In this document: positions 11,310 to 63,197 of the stretch, in pieces
How the letters are laid out: each line of letters starts with the position of its first letter
Numbering within the stretch: position 1 is the first letter of the stretch
Assembly: GCF_018977255.1 (NCBI RefSeq)
Contig: NW_024704742.1
Coordinates: 5,334,001 to 5,398,000, forward strand
DNA: 64,000 nucleotides
Direction of reading: 5' to 3'
Origin: Callorhinchus milii
Taxonomy: Eukaryota
Position numbers and translations under genes: made by a program
Notes under the pieces: generated by a model
Database searches by the model: none
Told to the model about the DNA's origin: nothing
The model's input: the letters and a program-made list of their open reading frames with translations, nothing else

Positions 11310-12128
11310 AAGGAAGTTACGAGGAAAGGCTGCGTAAACTTGGATGTATTCCCTTGAGTTTAGAAGGTTGAAGGGTGATTTGATTAAGGTATTTAAGATG
11401 ATAAAGGGATTTGATAGAGTAGATACAGAGAAACTATTTCTTCTGGTGGGAGAATTCCAAATCAAGGGGGGCAGAGTCTGAAAATTAGAACCAGGCCATT
11501 GAAGAGTGAAATCAGGAAGCATTTTTTCACTCAAAGGCTGGTAGAAATCTGGAATTCTCTCCCCCAAAAAGCCATGGATGCTGGATCCATCCACACCTTC
11601 AAGAGTGAGGTTGATCTCTCAGCCCCGAGGCTCTGGAACTCCATCCCCCAGTGCCTTCGCCTTCGCTTCCTCCCTTTCCTCCTTCAAGGCCGGTGGTCTC
11701 AAGACCTTTCTCTTTGACCGTGCCTTCAGCTCCCCTCTCGACTCTCTACCCCCTCCTCGCTCCCTCCCTTCCCTCCCCTCACCCTGACCATTCCCCCCTC
11801 CTCGCTCCCTCCCTTCCCTCCCCTCACCCTGACCATTTCCCTCCTCCTCGCTCCCTCCCTTCCCTCCCCTCACCCTGACCGTTTCCCCCCAATGCTCGGG
11901 TCATGACCCAACTGTACAGCGCCTTGGGACGTCCTCCCGACGTGAAAGGCGCTCTATAAATGGAATCTTGTTGTTGTTGTGATAGATTTTTAGTAGGTCA
12001 GAGTATTAACGGCTTTGGGGAGAAAGCAGGAAATTGAAATTAGTTGAGGTACAGATCAGCCATGATCTAATTAAATGACAGAACAGGCTCGAGGGGCTGA
12101 ATGGCCTCCCCCTGTTCCTATGTTCCTA
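11310..12128 (+). mobile_element. CR1 LINE 3' part (ORF2 C-terminus and tail), interrupted by an L2 at 11616-11979
   Basis: RRLKGDLIKVFKMIKGFDRV and EIRKHFFTQRLVEIWNSLPQKA peptides; ggctgaatggcct...tgttcctatgttcct tail. Confidence 0.92.
11616..11979 (+). mobile_element. Young 5'-truncated L2 LINE nested in CR1, TSD TGAT
   Basis: SAPRLWNSIP peptide, C/T-rich 3'UTR, stem-loop and (TTG)n tail; near-identical to 19920-20373. Confidence 0.92.
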
Positions 12129-12653: not shown

Positions 12654-12684
<31 letters not shown>

Positions 12685-19919: not shown

Positions 19920-20373
19920 ACAACAACAACAACAAGATTCCATTTATTGAGCGCCTTTCACGTCGGGAGGACGTCCCAAAACGCTGGACAGTTGGGTCAG
20001 GACCCGAGCATTGGGGGGAAATGGTCAGAGTGAGGGGAGGGAAGGGAGGGAGCGAGGAGGGGGTAGAGAGTCGAGGGGGAGCTGAAGGCTCGGTCAAAGA
20101 GAAAGGTTTTGAGACCGGCCTTGAAGGAGGAAAGGGAGGAAGCGGCGAAGGCACTGGGGGATAGAGTTCCAGAGCTGAGAGGCTGAAGGCCCGACCACCG
20201 ATGGTAGGGCGGTTGGGGCGGGGGATGTGGAGCAGACCGGAGCCAGAGGAACGGAGGGTACGGGCAGGTAGGTAGGGGGATAGTAGGTCGGAGAGGTAGG
20301 AGGGAGCGAGGCCGTGGATAGCCTTGTAGGTGAGGATGAGGATCTTGAATTCGAGTCTCTGTCTGTTCCGCAC
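19920..20373 (-). mobile_element. Young L2 LINE 3' end
   Basis: FKILILTYKAIHGLAPSYLSDLL...RTLRSS...GGRAFS is the L2 ORF2 C-terminus; (TTG)n tail. Confidence 0.94.
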
Positions 20374-45419: not shown

Positions 45420-46200
45420 CATTCCTCAAAAGACGCAATCTTGACCCCTCCAACCTCACAAATTACCATCCCATTTCCAACCTGCCCTTCCTTGCCAAAG
45501 CTCTAGAACAAATTGTCGCTAACCAGCTTAGCACTCACCTCTCGCTCCACGAGCCCCAGCATTCTGGTTTCTGCATTGCCCATTGCACAGCAGTCACAAA
45601 CCTGCCGATAGCTGGTCAAGGTCACAAACTACATCCTTTCTCGCTGTGACCAGGGCTCCCTCTGCCTCCTCATCCTCCTGGATCTCTCCTCCGTGTTCGA
45701 CACAGTTGACCAAGCCATCCTCCTCCACTGCCTCTTCTCCCTCATCCACCTCAGTGGGACTGCACTAGCCTGGCTCGAATCCTACCTAACAAACCACCTT
45801 CACTTTATCTCCTCAAACGGTTTCTTCTCCCGTCTCTGCCTTGTTGTGCACTTGTTGTGTACCCCAGGTCTCCATCCTTGGCCACCTCCTCCTTCTTCAT
45901 CTATATGCTCCCTCTTGGGGATGTCATCCGTAGACAAGAGGGTAAACTTCCTCTTGTATGCAGATGAAACATAAATCTACCTCTCCTTCTCCAGCTGCGG
46001 CTCCAAGGTCTAAATGAGTGAAAACTTCCTACAATTCAATGTTGACCAGACGGAAACTGTACTTATTGGCTCCCGTCAATGTCTTTTATCCTGCGGCTTT
46101 GACCTCCAACTTCTCCGGCTTATCCCTCACTTACCGAACCAGTGCGCAACCCAGGCGTCAGGTTCGACCCACTGCTATCCTTCCTTCCCCTCCACCTGAA
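45420..46200 (+). mobile_element. Decayed L2 LINE ORF2 (reverse transcriptase) between the two genes
   Basis: LDPSNLTNYHPISNLPFLAKALEQIVANQL, FDTVDQAILL, LYADET and MSENFLQFNVDQTE peptides. Confidence 0.92.
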
Positions 46201-46910
46201 GACCTTCCTATTCAAGACCTACGGTCACCTCCCCCTACCCTGGTTCGACGTCGTGCTCTGCCAGTCAAGTGCTCTGCGACGCTACCCCAAGTGAGGGACG
46301 CAAGTTGTTATAACGATGGGCCGAATGGCCTCTTTTTGTGCTGTATGATTCTATGATAATTTGAGTGCTGAAAGCTGCTCGAGAAACTTCCTGCAACTGA
46401 AAATAGCTCTTAAGCATTAATATAAGCATTATATAATTGTATCTAATTCTGGTCTCCACATTATAATAGAGGAAGGAATTATAGCAGCGATGGAAAGAGT
46501 ACAGCATAGGTTTACGCAGATAATACCAGGATTGGCAGGTTACTGCGATCAGGATAGACTAGATAGCATTTTTTGCTAGAAGAGGGGATCTAATAGAAGT
46601 GTTAAAATCATGAAAGGGTTTGATATCATGAAAGACTTCAGCACTCTTTATTTTCTCGGGAGCCCACAATGGTGGAAGTATTCAATCTATGTGAATCTTC
46701 TCACGCAGTTGAACATACTCAAATGAACGAAGGTGGAAGCGAAGGCCACAAATCTACCGAAAGCTGTGTTAGAAAGTAGCAGTTGCAAGAAAATGAGATG
46801 GTGGAATGCACCTACTACACCTACAGACTTGTAAACAAATTTCAGTTACTCCATTTTCAATCCTACACACTAAGAAAATCAACACATTAGACACCACTGG
46901 GAACTTACGG

Positions 46911-46921
46911 TTTAATTTATT
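46911..46921 (-). promoter_or_regulatory. Candidate RAP1GDS1 poly(A) signals (overlapping AATAAA/ATTAAA); another AATAAA lies at 47263-47268
   Basis: + strand tttaatttatt reads AATAAATTAAA on the - strand, about 520 nt after the stop. Confidence 0.45.
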
Positions 46922-47435
46922 AATTCTAGGTACCATGATATTACATCATTAACAGCCAACATTTGGGAAAGGTTCATGATGCACGCTATTTTGGTTTTTT
47001 TTTGGCTCTTGGAAGCATTAAGAATGGAGCATGAAGCAAGCTTCAATAGTTGAATCTAAAGGAAAATTTCAGGTTTTAAACTGCAGCGTCCTCAGTCTCT
47101 CGCGTTTATCACTGCATGGAATAGGAGTGCGGTGTCTGTGTAAGATGGGTGCAATTCTCCTAGAAACAGTCACATTGTTATTTTACTACGACATGCAAGT
47201 TCTACCACATTGTTTCTGGCAACAAGGGACATTGAAGAGGATGTGGAATGACAACTGGTAATTTTATTTGAGTCACAGCTCGCAGTTGAAATGACTTGGT
47301 CCCAGTTTCTGCCAGACTGGGCCCATCTATGCATGCACAGGGAGTGAGGAGGAAGAATGCCGCACGAGCAGCTCACAGCAGACAAAGGTGACCCGTTGAC
47401 GAGATACTGAAGGACAGGTAAACTGGGAACAAATC

Positions 47436-47563
47436 TCAGCTTTCAACAGTCAGTCTCTGCTCGGTCACGGATGCCTGCTGGGCGACAAGTTTGTTCTCGT
47501 GACTGCGGAGCTTGGACACCACCTCTTTGAATGGCATACTCTGTGCTTCCTTCTTGAGTAGTT
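47436..47563 (-). CDS. RAP1GDS1: RAP1GDS1 terminal coding exon (~15): ELLKKEAQSMPFKEVVSKLRSHENKLVAQQASVTEQRLTVES*
   Basis: ccctttcag| acceptor; TGA at 47438-47436; the TEQRLTVES C-terminus matches SmgGDS. Confidence 0.95.
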
Positions 47564-48248
47564 CTGAAAGGGTAAGAAAGAGACATTCAGCGATTTGCCT
47601 TGCAAATATATTCCCGCACCAGGCTCCGCGACCCTATCGCCCCTACCCTCGCCCCGGCTCCACTGGTGCCCCATCACTCAAGAGGATACAGTTCAAGATC
47701 CTGGTCCTCACCTTCAAAGTCCGACACGGCCTTGCTCCTGTCCGCTCTGTTAGCTCAGCAGCCTCAGGCCTGTCCACTCTGTTAGCTCAGCAGCCTCAGG
47801 CCTGCTTCACGTCTCCCACCTTGCTGGCCCCATCATTGGGGATGGGCCTTCAGCCTCTCTGCCTCCACCCTCTGAAACTCCATCCCACGGTCCCTCTGCC
47901 TCTCCCCTCCCTTGCCTCCTTCGAGATCAGTCTCAAGACCCTCCTCTTTGATCGTGCATTCGGTCACCCTCCTTCCCCTATCCTCTCCTCTGCAGTAAAC
48001 GCCCAGCATCTGGAAGTTTTTGTAATAATATTAGCTAATGCTCCACAAAGTCTATGAATTTCAAAACTTACTATTGCAAAAAAATTGGTACTATCAGATC
48101 AAGAACTCTCTATGACAATAGAACAGTTTGGCAGCCGTGGGATTAGGAATAAATTCCAGAAGCATTTTACTTACTCGTCAGATATCAACCAATCAACCAT
48201 GTTTGGCTCACTTTGTTACACTGATAACTCACAATGTGCAATGCTCAC

Positions 48249-48377
48249 CTGACCCCATGATGGTGCAAACCATGATCATTGAGTTGTACTTAATTTCTGG
48301 TGCACTGACATCATCAGAAACCAATTTGTGTAGAACTTGCACAAGTTTGGCATTCTCTAGATCCTGTTCTGCAGTAC
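48249..48377 (-). CDS. RAP1GDS1: RAP1GDS1 penultimate exon (~14), 129 nt: GTAEQDLENAKLVQVLHKLVSDDVSAPEIKYNSMIMVCTIMGS
   Basis: gttgttcccatcag| acceptor and |gtgagc donor; SAPEIKYNSM motif. Confidence 0.95.
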
Positions 48378-48387
48378 CTGATGGGAA

Positions 48388-48454
48388 CAACAACAACTTT
48401 ACATTTGTATGGCGCCTTTTACAACAGGAGGAAATCGAAAGGGACACTTATCCC
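48388..48454 (-). mobile_element. L2/SINE-type 3' tail (...aaaaggcgccatacaaatgtaaa(gtt)n) joined to the duplicate and ending 10 nt before the exon acceptor
   Basis: Resembles the ...aaaggcgctctataaatggaatc(ttg)n ends of the L2 copies at 11979 and 19920. Confidence 0.75.
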
Positions 48455-48961
48455 TTTTGGCTCTTGGAAGCATTAAGAATGGAGCATGAAGCAAGCTTCA
48501 ATATTTGAATCTAAAGGAAAATTTCAGGTTTTAAACTGCAGCGTCCTCAGTCTCTCGCGTTTATCACTGCATGGAATAGGGAGTGCGGTGTCTGTGTAAG
48601 ATGGGTGCAATTCTCCTAGAAACAGTCACATTGTTATTTTACTACGACATGCAAGTTCTACCACATTGTTTCTGGCAACAAGGGACATTGAAGAGGATGT
48701 GGAATGACAAATGGTAATTTTATTTGAGACACAGCTCGCAGTTGAAATGACTTGGTCCCAGTTTCTGCCAGACTGGGCCCATCTATGCATGCACAGGGAG
48801 TGAGGAGGAAGAATGCCGCACGAGCAGCTCACAGCAGACAAAGGTGACCCGTTGACGAGATACTGAAGGACAGGTAAACTGGGAACAAATCTCAGCTTTC
48901 AACAGTCAGTCTCTGCTCGGTCACGGATGCCTGCTGGGCGACAAGTTTGTGCTCGTGACTG
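48455..48961 (-). pseudogene. Intragenic duplicate of the RAP1GDS1 last-exon 3' end and 3'UTR (source 47000-47505), inserted in the intron before the penultimate exon
   Basis: Direct comparison shows 4 substitutions and one 1-bp insertion over ~506 bp; same orientation as the source. Confidence 0.96.
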
Positions 48962-49088
48962 GGAAGGGAATGTAAAGTAAAATATTCCAAAATTAAGTGC
49001 TAAGTATTAAGAAACGTTATGGAACGAACACCAATGCTAGTTATTTAAATGCCGTCTACCTTTCATGCTACAAAATATGCTTTTAAGC

Positions 49089-49356
49089 ATTTGTTTAGCA
49101 ACTTTACTAACCAATTAGTCACCAAGATGATAGAACCAAATGATTTTTTTTTCCCCCTGCTACCTTCAAAAGAAATCCTCACATGATTTGAACTCCTTCT
49201 TTGGTAAAATGGTTTTTCCCCCTGCCACTTTGCCCCTACAGAAGCAGTCCAAATCATGTGAGAATTTTTTTTTGAAGGTAGCAGGGGGAAAAAAAAATCA
49301 TTTGGTTCTATCATCTTGGTGATCGTAATTGGTTATAGTAAACTTGCTAAATAAAT
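49089..49356. repeat. Long inverted repeat (foldback, MITE-like), ~110-bp arms and ~40-bp spacer
   Basis: tcaccaagatgatagaaccaaatgatttttttttccccctgctaccttcaaaa (from 49119) has its exact reverse complement ending at 49322; the outer and inner arms pair imperfectly. Confidence 0.93.
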
Positions 49357-50576
49357 ATATTGGCTGATGTGTGTTGGCCAATAATATACCAGACCAGACA
49401 TTCTTTGTGCAGTTGCATTTTTACATTCCAAAATTCTTTGGCTTCTGTTTATTTGCTCTATACAAAGTCATTGAGGTTTTTTTCTGATTCCTTCCACCAA
49501 TATAATAGTGAAAGCTGGGAGAAATCCCCTGAACATCAGAGGTTATTGTTTCCAAAACGAACAAAACTATCTTACCCAGCATATGTGCATCAAGTGCATA
49601 ATCACATATGTCAGTGAGTGTTTTCGCTATTTGGAGCAATATAATACATTTATATTGTGCCTTTCACATCAAGAAGATGACTCAAAGCACCCGCGGTTCT
49701 TTGATAAGATGACAGCAACAAGAGATCTGGCAGGGGCCATGTGCAAAAGCAAGTTAACCCATAACGGGTTTTCATTATGGTCTGCCGAGAAATGTCATTA
49801 GCATAATCATAATTTAATGCACTACAAATCTAATGCTGCATGGTCTTTCCATCACAGTAATTGTATTGTTTTGATCCATGAGCTAAGCACTTGAGCAGCT
49901 GAAAAGCCAATGTCCACTAATTAATTACAGGCTGAGGTTGGGGAGCCTCAGAGAATCCAGATAACCCTGTTCATTATTACAGACAATTCAACCATTGCTG
50001 CTATTTTTGATCGTTAGTTCAACTGACTGCACTTCTGCTCAATTTTCTAGGCAACCTGGAACTGTGCTTTTTTGATAAGTTGACAATCGAAGACTTAGTG
50101 TTGAGGGAAGTCAGACTTGGGAGTATTTCTTTGCAGCAAATTTGACATACACTAACTACTTTGGGAAATCACAGAACAATAACAAGTCTTATAAATGTCA
50201 ATCACGCAGAAGGATCCATGGAACGATGAAACAGGGCACCGACATCTGCTATGTATTTATACAATAATTATTTATGCATTTTTGCAGCGCTGGCTTGAGC
50301 ACTAGCACCAGGAACATTTCTCCGCCTTCATACACTTCTACTGCTGTCAGTATGCTCGAGCGATTTTTGTTGCATCCCAAATTCAAGCATGGATTCAAAA
50401 ATGTATTCACGGTTAAAGAAATCAGTGTATTTATTAACTGTTCTAAAATAAACTCTCTCAACACACCAAGATTATTGTGTCCCGTTTGATGCTGATATCG
50501 TACCTACAATCTGCAGGACAAAGTTAACCAAACCTCGGTTTTGGTTAAATTCATATTGTGCATACACTCCACTTAC

Positions 50577-50703
50577 CGAGTTCCAGCGCAGCTATCAGTC
50601 CCAGAGCAACGAGAGCTTCATTCTGCATTATAACATGTTCACTCGTTGCCATAGTGACCAGATGTTTTACACCACCACTTTGAACAATGGTCTTAACGAC
50701 GTC
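50577..50703 (-). CDS. RAP1GDS1: RAP1GDS1 ~exon 13, 127 nt: DVVKTIVQSGGVKHLVTMATSEHVIMQNEALVALGLIAALEL
   Basis: ttgtcag| acceptor and |gtaagt donor; phase 0/1. Confidence 0.96.
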
Positions 50704-52049
50704 CTGACAAAGTGGGGGCAAGAAACAAACAGTTAGTGTACAGAAGGGGCGGGCGGGGGGGGGGGGGGGGGGGGGCAGCAAGATAATTCATAAATTGATC
50801 TGTAAAAGCAAATTCAGGTACTCGAATGTGTCCCGGCCCATCCATCTGGAGTTCTGCTCAAACAATGAAAGCACCTTCTTTAATTGCAATCCCGATTTAC
50901 AGAATTAAACCTGGAATCAGCCTCGACACATTCACGTATCGGTAGGATTCACTTTTTATGATTCCCACATTTTAGACCCACTGTTAGCTCAATAAACTGT
51001 ACCGTATTAGACAACTGCATTTCATGAATCGAAAACGGTTCCCAAGATATTCTCAAATTATAAATTACTGCCAATTTAATTATGTCACATTATCATAATT
51101 GCGTGAGCAACATTTTTTCACCTGCACAATATCACCTGGCTTGCCAAACCAATTTCAAGGTACAGTCATCCTATAAACACTACAGAAAACATGTTGTACT
51201 CTGTTCAATGGTGCAAAATTGCATTTGCATTTATCTGCAGCATGATGCAAATTGCTGATACAGACATGTTGAGGATAAAAACTACCCACCTTCACATATC
51301 CTGTCACTGTGCCTCCACAGCACACTCAAACTACAACAAGAGCACTGAAAATGTTTTAAACCCAGCTTGAAAAGCTGTCTGAAGGTCACCATTTCACGGT
51401 AATTAAGCTGATCCCCACTCTCCTCAGCCACTCTGCACCCCCTCAGGCTTCACATCAGCTGTGATGGTTTTAGATGTCATCCTGACGTGACAGGTGCTAT
51501 ATACGTGTAAATGGTTGCTGTTGTTGATCCACTGTTTCATGCTACATAAGGAAACCCTGTTACTGGGTACAGGACTGCGTTATAAGCAAGTATGAAAAAA
51601 TGGCCAACTTCCAAATTACGTTGTCAGTTTGTTGCTACTTCCTTCATTGAAGTGACATCAGTGGCTTTTCCTGCACATAGTACGGAAGTTACGTCAACAG
51701 CGACCAGACAACCTGGATTTTGGACACTTTATTGAAGGAAGACAGCTAGTCAAGGCTGGAAACTCAGTGTCCACATTACACCACGCTGTAAGTAACTCAA
51801 TGGGGAGGCATTCGAACAGGATTGCCTTGTACCTGGGTACTAACTACCGTGGCTGTAGAGAAAATGTCCCTTAGTACCAGATATGTACCAGATGGAGAAA
51901 GTTAAGAAATATTCCATGCGCACAATTAATGGTGTTCCTAAACAGTCACCGGCTTTCCTGCAGGTTCATTTTGTGCCGAGAAGCCGTTTAATGTCAGACA
52001 AGAATTCCTAAATTTAGTGCTCACGCACGCCACGTTCCTGGACACACAC

Positions 52050-56235: not shown

Positions 56236-56689
56236 AAAGACCCAAGTAAAAATTCAAACGGATAGAATGTCTCACACCTACTAGTTACAAAGTCACAAAG
56301 CAGTAATTATATTAGCAAATAATTAATTCACTTTTTAGAACAAAACTATTTCCTGGCCAACAACTCTCCGATAGAATTAGTCATTTAGTTCATGGCAGTT
56401 TGTGGGACTTTGGTGTACTCAAATTAGCTGACAAGTTGGCCGAAAAAACAGTCACTATACCAAATGTAAGGAGGATTATTATTATTATGATTATTATTAT
56501 TACCGTTACCATGATCACTTATGAAAAAAAGTTTTGTTAGGGTTTGGATTGAATTGCAGAAATTGGATCTAATTGCAGAAATGAAAAATTGCAGAAATGG
56601 AAATCCCTATAGAAAATCACTGTAGGAACATCTTTCAAAAGCAGAACTTGTGATTTAACACCAACAACTTATTCTTATACAGCGCCTTA

Positions 56690-62587: not shown

Positions 62588-63197
62588 CTGTAAAACATTG
62601 GGGAAATTAACAATTTAGAATATCTTAAAGGTCTAACGCATTCTTCAAGAACAAGATGCATCCCTTAAATGATACACAATCAGACAGTAAGAAAAGAAAC
62701 AAGGCTGCAAACAGTATCGCCTGAAAGCAATGCATTGAAAGAAGAGACCACTGTTGAAGGAATGGTTAAAGATATGATGACTCTGAACATTAAAATCATG
62801 GTGAATCTGATAAGTTCAAAGGTACTGTTACATGAGAAAACAGGGGTTATGTGCAGAAGTAAATATACGTATATAGCTGAAAGAGAGGACAGTCTGCATA
62901 GTGGTAGTGCAAGGACATTTATTCAGCCTATGGGGATACCCATCAAACTTGCAAACATCAAATGTAAGTTTCCCTCATGTCTTCTAGGTTATCTTTTGGG
63001 ATGACTGACACCACTTCAAAGAATGTCATTTTTAAATATGCAGGCTACACAGGATCCAATGACTTTTGCCCCCCAAAAAGTGCAACATAACAGAATTTTC
63101 AAAACCTCTATGACCACTTCAAGCTCTGCAACAATTGGTGTATAGCAACTTCTGCAGTTTTCACTGATTGTTTCTTGGATTAAATAATCACTTATCT

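What the first reader, a model, noticed from the sequence alone, without database searches (positions are those of the whole stretch)
48382..48965. RAP1GDS1 carries a chimeric, TSD-flanked copy of its own 3' end inside its own splice acceptor
Seen in sequence: on the - (gene) strand the insert reads [copy of last-exon end + 3'UTR; source 47505->47000; 5 differences in ~506 bp] + [67-bp L2/SINE-like tail ending in (GTT)n]. TGGGAA flanks it at 48382-48387 and 48960-48965. Removing the insert and one TGGGAA restores a textbook acceptor, ttttactttacattcccttcccatcag|GTACTG. The copy's 3' end falls in an A9 run of the source. Inference: this looks like target-primed reverse transcription that began on a LINE/SINE RNA tail and switched template to the host's own transcript (as in U6-L1 chimeras), landing about 1 kb from the source. 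Caveats: the copy spans no exon junction, so an RNA intermediate is unproven. The tail is also more diverged from the young L2 tails than the copy is from its source, which allows a DNA-templated repair insertion or later gene conversion.
Basis: partly seen in the sequence, partly recalled or inferred. Interest (0 to 1): 0.9.

Follow-up and report, generated by a model that had tools for sequence, protein, structure and literature searches.

The report
Gene's own 3' end copied beside SINE tail
An intron of the elephant-shark-like RAP1GDS1 gene really does hold a 0.58-kb insert, made of a copy of the gene's own 3' end joined to an old retrotransposon tail, right at a splice site; splicing still works, and the two halves look so different in age that a single retrotransposition event is not the safest reading.

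Summary
On the - strand, 48961->48455 copies 47505->47000 (last-exon end plus 3'UTR) with 5 differences in 507 columns. It is followed by a 67-nt tail ending in (GTT)4. The composite is flanked by ttccca (4-6 bp counts as TSD) and ends 10 nt before the exon that starts at 48377. It is not an assembly artefact. Contigs of two other samples carry the 5' junction, and one also carries the tail/exon junction. An RNA contig shows normal splicing across the intron.

The tail belongs to the genome's (GTT)n L2-2_CM/SINE tail family but is badly decayed. It has lost 4 of 5 CpGs and the family hairpin, and it has no close source in the assembly. The copy has lost 0 of 14 CpGs.

My best reading (0.45) is two steps: an ancient 5'-truncated tail insertion, then a recent locally templated insertion of sequence lying 1.46 kb downstream, at the tail's 5' edge.

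The orthologous intron in related chimaeras would decide. Interest is moderate.

The parts
48960..48965 (-). Upstream copy of the short duplication (ttccca). Its last two letters (ca) also match the source, giving 5' microhomology.
48455..48959 (-). Copy of the last 66 coding nt (HEHKLVAQQASVTEQRLTVES*) plus 3'UTR of the same gene, up to the 4th A of an internal A9 run. There are 5 differences from the source.
48388..48454 (-). 67-nt 5'-truncated tail of the (GTT)n L2-2_CM/SINE tail family. It is decayed: the hairpin is lost and 4 of 5 CpGs are lost. The (GTT)4 run spans 48397-48386.
48382..48387 (-). Downstream copy of the duplication (ttccca). Its TT is ambiguous with the (GTT)n run, so the TSD is 4-6 bp.
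48250..48377 (-). Penultimate coding exon of RAP1GDS1. Its acceptor AG lies at 48379-48378. An RNA contig shows it is still spliced to the upstream exon.
47000..47505 (-). Source of the copy: the end of the last coding exon (stop at 47441-47439) plus 3'UTR up to an internal A9 run. The mRNA runs on past this point.
   Evidence: X5 loose end at 48455 reads source sequence beyond the A-run
50577..50703 (-). True upstream exon (DVVKTIVQSGG...ALEL). Its donor is joined to 48377 in RNA.
49089..49356 (.). Context, not proven to be part of the event: a single-locus palindrome of about 268 bp, 128 bp upstream of the insert.

Best explanation
This is a two-step origin that mimics a one-step chimera.

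Step 1 (ancient, inferred). An ordinary 5'-truncated copy of the (GTT)n L2-2_CM-type tail (67 nt) was inserted by target-primed reverse transcription into the polypyrimidine tract of this acceptor, with a 4-6 bp target duplication. It then decayed in place.

Step 2 (recent, inferred). A break or stalled fork at the 5' edge of that tail was repaired by copying nearby sequence of the same gene, 1,456 bp downstream and in the same orientation. Synthesis entered the donor at a 2-nt microhomology (CA), ran 506 nt, and left the template in an A9 homopolymer before rejoining. The template may have been the neighbouring DNA or the gene's own transcript.

What is shown: the structure; its presence in three samples (all three for the 5' junction, two for the tail/exon joint); normal splicing; and the difference in decay between the two halves. 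What is inferred: the order of events and the repair mechanism.
For: 1. Age discordance.
- Intact family tails fold into a long hairpin, with energies of -16.9 to -22.3 kcal/mol against shuffle means of -13.6 to -15.5. This tail folds at -8.9, worse than its shuffle mean of -12.6.
- The tail is the least like the family consensus of the 30 tails compared, tied with one other (50 of 67 positions).
- It has lost 4 of 5 family CpGs. The copy has kept 14 of 14 CpGs. Fisher's p = 0.0013.

2. No source for the tail.
- The best other matches in the assembly are 83-95% identical over parts of the tail (40 scored of 173 candidates).
- A 40-nt pattern search allowing up to 3 mismatches finds only the tail itself.
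- No subfamily shares its two diagnostic changes (0 of 11 further loci).

3. The SINE family that was active recently uses a different tail. Its copies are 98-99% alike (40 scored of 837 candidates). As read, it carries the same hairpin but an (ATT)n end, not (GTT)n.

4. The donor lies 1.46 kb away in cis and in the same orientation. The copy alone has no duplication of its own and no poly(A), and it ends inside the mRNA. This is what local templated repair gives. It is not expected for a randomly chosen cellular RNA.

5. All 4 substitutions between copy and source are transversions, and the fifth difference is a +C in a C-run. That would suit error-prone synthesis. Under ordinary mutation the chance is about 0.012-0.06.

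6. In the 326 nt covered by organism B's contigs, all 4 copy/source differences are source-type in B, so they are derived in the copy.

7. A unique 268-bp palindrome with a DNA fold energy of -105.8 kcal/mol lies 128 bp upstream. It is a plausible break-prone site.
Against: The second insertion must have landed exactly between the upstream ttccca and the first base of the old tail. That is roughly 1 chance in about 1,600 for a random point in this intron. A single TSD-flanked insertion explains this placement without any coincidence.

Microhomology is weak: 2 nt at entry and 0-1 nt at exit.

No allele or species with the tail but without the copy was seen. All three samples that could be read carry the copy's 5' junction.

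Templated repair insertions of about 500 nt are unusual compared with the short filler DNA usually reported; this statement is recalled, not checked in any paper.

In 40 other 3-kb loci holding tails, the only local repeat of 80 bp or more at 90% identity or better was a pair of copies of a high-copy element. The window's other two repeat pairs are SINE or tandem-repeat copies. Local non-TE duplication is therefore not common here.
Confidence: 0.45

Rival explanations
1. This was one ancient chimeric TPRT event, essentially the first reader's model. An L2-2_CM-type RT started on a then-intact (GTT)n tail RNA and switched template after 67 nt. The new template was the RAP1GDS1 transcript, or the nearby DNA, at the A9 run. 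The RT copied 506 nt and joined upstream by CA microhomology. Since then, gene conversion with the parental 3' end 1.46 kb away has kept the copy about 99% identical to it, while the tail, which has no partner, decayed.
For: The duplication flanks the composite exactly; the chance at this offset is 3.3e-4 for 6 nt and 4.5e-3 for 4 nt.

The order (5' host sequence, then 3' LINE tail, in the same orientation) is that of known template-switch chimeras (passages of PMC13174262; PMC5499810).

The TT overlap at the 3' junction, the CA overlap at the 5' junction and the short TSD fit what is reported for L2 (ZfL2-2): about 80% of copies have 3' microhomology, about 50% have 5' microhomology, and TSDs are short (PMC2666801 passages).

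Short 5'-truncated tails of 50-70 nt are common in this genome, so this is a natural place for the RT to stop or switch.

The tail's decay matches the old average divergence reported for these SINE families, 12.6-22.4% (PMC5499810 passages).

Close direct repeats are good substrates for gene conversion (general knowledge, not tested here).
Against: It needs unobserved concerted evolution over a very long time. Yet identity runs right up to both edges: the last 49 nt and the first 10 nt are identical, and there is no homology beyond the edges. Conversion should be weakest at the edges.

The differences are 4 transversions and an indel, not the transition-rich spectrum of ordinary decay.

The second template being the very gene that was hit requires a strong local-RNA or local-DNA effect, which is not documented in the passages I read.

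The switch lands at an internal A-run rather than at an RNA 3' end.
Confidence: 0.3
2. This was one recent chimeric TPRT event that used an already decayed tail as its first template. For example, an old SINE fragment embedded in some transcript served first, and the RT then switched to RAP1GDS1 RNA.
For: It explains the exact TSD, the perfect state of the duplication, the youth of the copy and the decayed look of the tail all at once. An L2-type machinery was active recently: a SINE family has copies 98-99% alike. The differences could be RT errors.
Against: The source locus of the tail should still be about 99% identical, but none exists in the 991-Mb assembly.

The tail lacks the hairpin that intact family members keep. 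Stringent L2-type RTs need that hairpin, according to review passages on stringent 3'-end recognition (PMC3747384) and the search-listing abstract on the UnaL2 hairpin (PMC1636434).

The recently active family ends in (ATT)n, not (GTT)n.

The coincidence of the gene hitting itself remains.
Confidence: 0.1
3. The insert came from a complex DNA rearrangement unrelated to the apparent TSD. One possibility is a tandem duplication of the 1,455-bp unit (tail to A-run) followed by deletion of its first 949 bp. Another is a multi-jump replication error that also produced the nearby palindrome.
For: The spacing of the repeats (1,455-1,456 bp) equals one unit running from the start of the tail to the A-run. 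A unique palindrome lies 128 bp away.
Against: It needs two breakpoints to coincide, and it leaves the ttccca duplication and the clean polypyrimidine tract abutting the insert to chance.
Confidence: 0.1
4. The structure is an assembly artefact or a collapsed haplotype.
For: The two copies are 99% alike, and contigs of short-read graphs collapse them. The X1 contig 48455-48950 is a mosaic of copy-type and source-type letters.
Against: Contigs of run X1, which differs from the window at several sites, cover 48200-48484 and 48921-50750. Run X5 covers 48921-49204, including the copy-specific C at 48951. A public protein model for this species also contains the copy-specific peptide HEHKL... next to the normal HENKL....
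Confidence: 0.02

Closest known systems
L1 template-switch chimeras (U6/L1, small-RNA/L1, mRNA/L1)
   Same: The order is 5' cellular sequence, then 3' LINE end, in one orientation and flanked by one TSD. Template switching during TPRT is the usual explanation (PMC13174262 passages; Buzdin 2002 as cited in PMC5499810).
   Different: Here the LINE part is a (GTT)n L2-type tail, not L1 with poly(A). The partner is the target gene's own 3' end, joined at an internal A-run rather than at an RNA 3' end or a splice site. The two halves do not look contemporaneous, whereas contemporaneous arrival is the criterion used in PMC13174262.
CmiSINE / SacSINE1-CM / L2-2_CM common 3' tail of Callorhinchus milii
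   Same: The 67 nt share the conserved box (..AAAGGCGCCATACAAATGTAA..) and the (GTT)n end with many genomic copies. The paper reports that these SINEs share the tail of L2-2_CM (PMC5499810 passages).
   Different: I could not compare with the Repbase consensus itself, because no such library is held. The assignment rests on genomic copies and on the paper's description. This copy is only a 5'-truncated, decayed tail.
snoRNA-RTE chimeras of platypus and SINE birth by module exchange
   Same: A host RNA piece is fused to a stringent-type LINE tail (mentioned in PMC5499810).
   Different: Those chimeras became mobile families. This sequence exists only at the source and at this one copy.
Locally templated insertions at breaks (filler DNA, MMBIR/FoSTeS, 'templated sequence insertions')
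   Same: The donor is in cis within 1.5 kb. There is microhomology at entry, no poly(A), and no TSD for the copied piece itself.
   Different: The length (507 bp) and the exact abutment to an older TSD-flanked tail differ. These mechanisms are recalled from general knowledge. My search for 'templated sequence insertion' listed no paper holding that phrase among the 10 shown.
ZfL2-2 (zebrafish L2) insertion junctions
   Same: 3' microhomology with the terminal repeat, 5' microhomology, a short TSD and frequent 5' truncation (PMC2666801 passages).
   Different: Those data concern ordinary L2 copies. I found no chimeras with host mRNA in the passages I read.

Membership tests
(GTT)n L2-2_CM-type tail family | Terminal (GTT)n repeat | tested here: met
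   (GTT)4 at 48397-48386.
(GTT)n L2-2_CM-type tail family | Conserved box upstream of the repeat, shared with many genomic copies | tested here: met
   40 scored matches of 173 candidates at 83-95% identity. The box is identical in most of the 30 tails aligned.
(GTT)n L2-2_CM-type tail family | Hairpin with outer and inner stem, as in intact copies | tested here: not met
   Fold energy is -8.9 kcal/mol against -16.9 to -22.3 for three intact window copies, and both stems are broken. This fits decay of a former member, not non-membership.
One-step TPRT template-switch chimera | One target-site duplication around the whole composite | tested here: met
   ttccca lies on both sides, 4-6 bp. Chance is 3.3e-4 to 4.5e-3.
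One-step TPRT template-switch chimera | Both parts arrived at the same time | tested here: not met
   The tail lost 4 of 5 CpGs and its hairpin, while the copy lost 0 of 14 CpGs. This could be rescued only by gene conversion, which was not tested.
One-step TPRT template-switch chimera | RNA origin of the host part (exon junction, poly(A) or RNA 3' end) | tested here: inconclusive
   The copy starts 58 nt inside the last exon, so it spans no junction. It has no poly(A). It ends at an internal A9 run while the mRNA runs on.
One-step TPRT template-switch chimera | An identifiable source element for the LINE part | tested here: not met
   No match within 3 mismatches over 40 nt other than the tail itself. 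The best other matches are 83-95% identical over parts of the tail.
Processed retrocopy | Spliced structure and a poly(A) tail at the mRNA's 3' end | tested here: not met
   There is no poly(A). The 3' end lies about 80-110 nt before the likely AATAAA (46921-46916, read).
Locally templated repair insertion | Donor close by in cis, and junction microhomology | tested here: met
   The donor is 1,456 bp away in the same orientation. Microhomology is CA at entry and 0-1 nt at exit.
Locally templated repair insertion | A pre-insertion allele that has the tail but not the copy | not testable with these tools
   No genome of a related species is held. Organism B's contigs cover only the 3'UTR.

The most novel reading that the evidence does not exclude
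An L2-type reverse transcriptase, priming at this acceptor on an intact (GTT)n tail RNA, switched template onto the target gene's own nascent transcript or its unwound DNA 1.5 kb away. The intronic copy has since been held at about 99% identity to the parental last exon and 3'UTR by intragenic gene conversion, over the long time in which the unpartnered tail lost its CpGs and its hairpin. That would be a natural record of local-template capture during TPRT by a stringent-type LINE. It would also be an unusually long-lived case of concerted evolution between a gene's 3' end and an intronic fragment.
Probability: 0.3. Interest if true: 0.7.

Novelty: new member of a known kind. Interest (0 to 1): 0.4.

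Why it matters
This is a clean, verifiable natural case for asking whether the host part of a LINE chimera can come from the locus being hit. Alternatively, it shows that break repair can paste 0.5 kb of a gene's own 3' end next to an old retroposon and so imitate a retro-chimera. Catalogues of chimeras that rely on TSDs alone would misfile such cases. The contrast in decay between the two halves is a simple test that could be applied more widely.

It also shows that a 0.58-kb insert ending 10 nt from an exon can leave splicing intact.

Finally, the insert has misled at least one public gene model. That model carries the copy's peptide in place of a true, conserved exon.

Tried and rejected
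- PDB search with 47443-47571 gave no hit. My coordinates included intron and were out of frame, so this says nothing.
- The earlier-findings look-ups by place, by relatives and by words returned nothing.
- Rfam found no family in 46000-51000.
- No RNA holder was listed as such by the run search. X5 proved to contain spliced RNA only when it was laid.
- No joint from 50577 to the new AG at the start of the copy (cccag|TCACGAG) was reported in X5. Contigs drop rare forms, so this is not evidence of absence.
- Organism B's two small contigs cover only 48455-48780 in source-type form, so they say nothing about the insert.
- The X1 contig 48455-48950 mixes copy-type letters (48504, 48581) with source-type letters (48711, 48729). 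I could not tell bubble-popping from a real conversion tract or polymorphism.
- I tested whether the upstream flank is SINE body split by the copy. It is single-copy, so this idea was rejected.
- I tested for an older, larger duplication. There is no homology beyond either edge, so this was rejected.
- I tested for a tail subfamily with this tail's two diagnostic changes. None was found among 11 further loci.
- I looked for TSDs of two younger SINE copies in the window. Their 5' ends were not clear and I gave this up.
- I checked 40 tail loci of 3 kb each for local duplications next to the tails. The only pair of 80 bp or more was two copies of a young high-copy element.
I dropped it.
- The literature search for 'templated sequence insertion' listed no paper holding the phrase among the 10 shown.

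Full report
**What is there.** Read on the - strand, the intron between the exon ending at 50577 and the exon starting at 48377 holds, in order:
- unique intron sequence ending in a pyrimidine-rich stretch and ttccca (48965-48960);
- a copy of the gene's own last-exon end and 3'UTR (to 48455);
- 67 nt ending in (GTT)4 (48454-48388);
- ttccca again (48387-48382);
- tcag and the exon.

The repeat finder reports the two direct repeats at a spacing of 1,455-1,456 bp. A local alignment gives 47505->47000 against 48961->48455 with 5 differences in 507 columns. The first two aligned letters (ca) belong equally to the flank. The last TT of (GTT)4 belongs equally to the duplication, so the TSD is 4-6 bp. 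The source run is A9, and the copy stops after its fourth A. An identical 6-mer at this offset occurs at 21 of 63,416 window positions, and a 4-mer at 288 of 63,418. The 507 bp has only these two copies in the 991-Mb assembly.

**The gene.** Exon 48377-48250 matches solved Rap1 GTPase-GDP dissociation stimulator 1 at E 3.5e-15. It is 100% identical to a UniRef protein labelled Callorhinchus milii (P0001). tblastn with shark and salamander orthologues places the exons on the - strand at 62597...52023, 50706-50575, 48378-48250 and 47567-47439.

The public model P0001 is wrong at this point. Instead of the conserved exon DVVKTIVQSGG...ALEL at 50703-50577, it carries 'DIIKLAVAGGKKNHLVLSSCHEHKLVAQQASVTEQRLTVERS'. 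That string is stitched from one arm of a nearby palindrome and from the copy. This is an annotation error. It does show that the copy-specific codon (H for N) was present in the sequence that model was built on.

**Not an artefact, and splicing survives.**
- Run X1 differs from the window at 7 sites and 4 gaps in the 1,830 window bases its contig covers. One of its contigs covers 48200-48484 without a difference, spanning exon, duplication, tail and 30 letters of the copy. That is one letter short of the tool's 31-letter rule, as expected where a k-mer graph meets a two-copy repeat.
- Another X1 contig runs from 48921 to beyond 50750. It bridges the 5' junction and holds the copy-specific C at 48951.
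- Run X5 has a low-depth contig at 48921-49204 that does the same.
- A depth-102 X5 contig joins 50577 to 48377 with GT..AG ends and continues into the last exon. The canonical acceptor is therefore used despite the insert ending 10 nt upstream of the exon.
- X5's 3'UTR contig is source-type at all four sites it covers and runs on past the A9 run, so the copy's 3' end is internal to the mRNA.
- No joint to the new AG created at the start of the copy (cccag|TCACGAG) was reported. Using it would give 13 novel residues and then a stop.
- Two small contigs of a second, coded organism B cover only the 3'UTR. They are source-type at all four copy/source differences they span, so those changes are derived in the copy.

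**The tail.** It belongs to a very large family.
- The own-genome search scored 40 matches of 173 candidates at 83-95% identity over parts of the 67 nt.
- The window itself holds several (GTT)n tails.
- Passages of PMC5499810 report that the CmiSINEs and SacSINE1-CM of C. milii share their tail with the LINE L2-2_CM. They report more than 500,000 copies in all and mean divergences of 12.6-22.4%.
- Intact copies fold into a long two-part hairpin, at -16.9 to -22.3 kcal/mol. This tail folds at -8.9, worse than its own shuffles.
- It matches the consensus of 29 other tails at only 50 of 67 positions, the lowest value, tied with one other.
- Against intact copies it has lost 4 of 5 CpGs.
- Nothing in the assembly matches its first 40 nt within 3 mismatches except itself.
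- Its two diagnostic changes define no subfamily (0 of 11 further loci).
- The flank upstream of the insert is single-copy, so the tail is a truncated piece and not a SINE split by the copy.

**The copy.** By contrast, the copy keeps all 14 CpGs of the source. Fisher's test for 4 of 5 lost against 0 of 14 lost gives p = 0.0013. Identity runs to both edges and nothing is alike beyond them. The four substitutions are all transversions, and the fifth change is +C in a C-run.

A SINE family with copies 98-99% alike (40 scored of 837 candidates) shows that an L2-type machinery was active recently. As read, though not folded, its tail has the same hairpin but ends in (ATT)n.

**Weighing the readings.** Each reading needs one unlikely thing.

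A single chimeric TPRT event explains the exact flanking duplication and the host-then-tail order. That order is typical of template-switch chimeras (PMC13174262 passages), and the junction details fit what is reported for an L2 element (PMC2666801 passages). It does not explain why the second template was the very gene that was hit. It also does not explain why the halves differ so much in decay. For the decay it needs either long-term gene conversion of the copy by its source, or a decayed tail RNA whose source locus is missing.

A two-step origin makes the nearby cis donor, the age contrast, the missing poly(A), the missing RNA marks and perhaps the odd mutation spectrum all natural. In that origin an old truncated tail was inserted first, and a later local templated insertion followed. 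It needs the second event to land exactly at the old tail's 5' edge, about 1 chance in 1,600 for this intron.

A unique palindrome of about 268 bp (DNA fold -105.8 kcal/mol) lies 128 bp upstream. It makes a break-prone intron plausible but does not explain the exact position.

I put the readings at:

| Reading | Probability |
|---|---|
| Two-step origin | 0.45 |
| Ancient chimera with gene conversion | 0.30 |
| Recent chimera with a decayed tail template | 0.10 |
| Another complex rearrangement | 0.10 |
| Artefact | 0.02 |

**What is known and what is new.** LINE chimeras with cellular RNAs are well catalogued for mammalian L1 (PMC13174262, passages). Fusions of host RNAs with stringent-type LINE tails are known from the platypus (cited in PMC5499810). 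Locally templated insertions are a known class of repair product; that statement is recalled, and my one search for the phrase found nothing. Whichever reading is right, this is a new instance of a known kind, with an unusual twist: the gene's own 3' end sits in its own acceptor.

Its value is as a test case. The orthologous intron in related chimaeras would settle it. The contrast in decay between the two halves is a cheap check for any claimed chimera.

**Limits.**
- All reads were graph contigs, not raw reads.
- No related genome was available.
- The supplements of PMC5499810 (tail alignments) and PMC2666801 (junction tables) were not opened and may bear on the tail assignment and on TSD lengths.

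Noticed in passing
window 49089-49356: A near-perfect palindrome of about 268 bp. Its arms are about 125 nt; the outer 57 nt are 98% complementary, and the DNA fold energy is -105.8 kcal/mol. It is found only at this locus in the assembly, so it is not a MITE family. No Rfam match. Runs X1 and X5 show several differences and small indels here.
   Followed up: partly
window 48898-49316 and 50577-50703; protein P0001: The public UniRef model for this gene skips the conserved exon at 50703-50577. In its place it carries a 42-residue stretch stitched from the palindrome arm and the intronic copy (..AGGKKNHLVLSSCHEHKLVAQQASVTEQRLTVERS..). This is a likely annotation error caused by the insert.
   Followed up: yes
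L049:1498-1821 (also twice in L030: 845-1031 and 2398-2584): A very young high-copy element, with copies 98-99% alike (40 scored of 837 candidates). Read in reverse, its tail has the same hairpin as the (GTT)n family but ends in (ATT)n. This suggests a recently active L2-type SINE/LINE pair. Many (ATT)n/(AAT)n arrays in the window (for example 2101-2127, 12654-12683, 56475-56502) may be its tails; I did not check them.
   Followed up: partly
window 48959-48965: The insert creates a new AG behind the old polypyrimidine tract (cccag|TCACGAG). If used, it would add VTSTNLSPSRHP after a junction codon and then stop, removing the last 85 residues. No such joint was reported in the one RNA run laid.
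   Followed up: partly
window 48711 and 48729: Two of the five copy/source differences lie 18 bp apart. They read source-type in run X1's contig, while the other two sites that contig covers read copy-type. This could be a polymorphism, a conversion tract, or bubble-popping in the contig graph.
   Followed up: no
window 47737-47804 and 47855-47961: The last intron holds a 32-bp tandem duplication (2.1 copies, 97% matches) and a stretch 75% similar to the head of a SINE found at 11619-11980.
   Followed up: no
window 11749-11890: A 46-bp unit repeated 3.1 times lies inside a SINE-like element that has a partner copy at 19923-20186 (91% identical).
   Followed up: no
window 30283: There is a single N in the window.
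   Followed up: no
literature (PMC13174262, passage seen): By coincidence, human RAP1GDS1 is reported there as the host of an intronic L1 that gave two mRNA/L1 chimeras by cis-splicing. This is unrelated in mechanism to the present case, as far as the passage shows.
   Followed up: no
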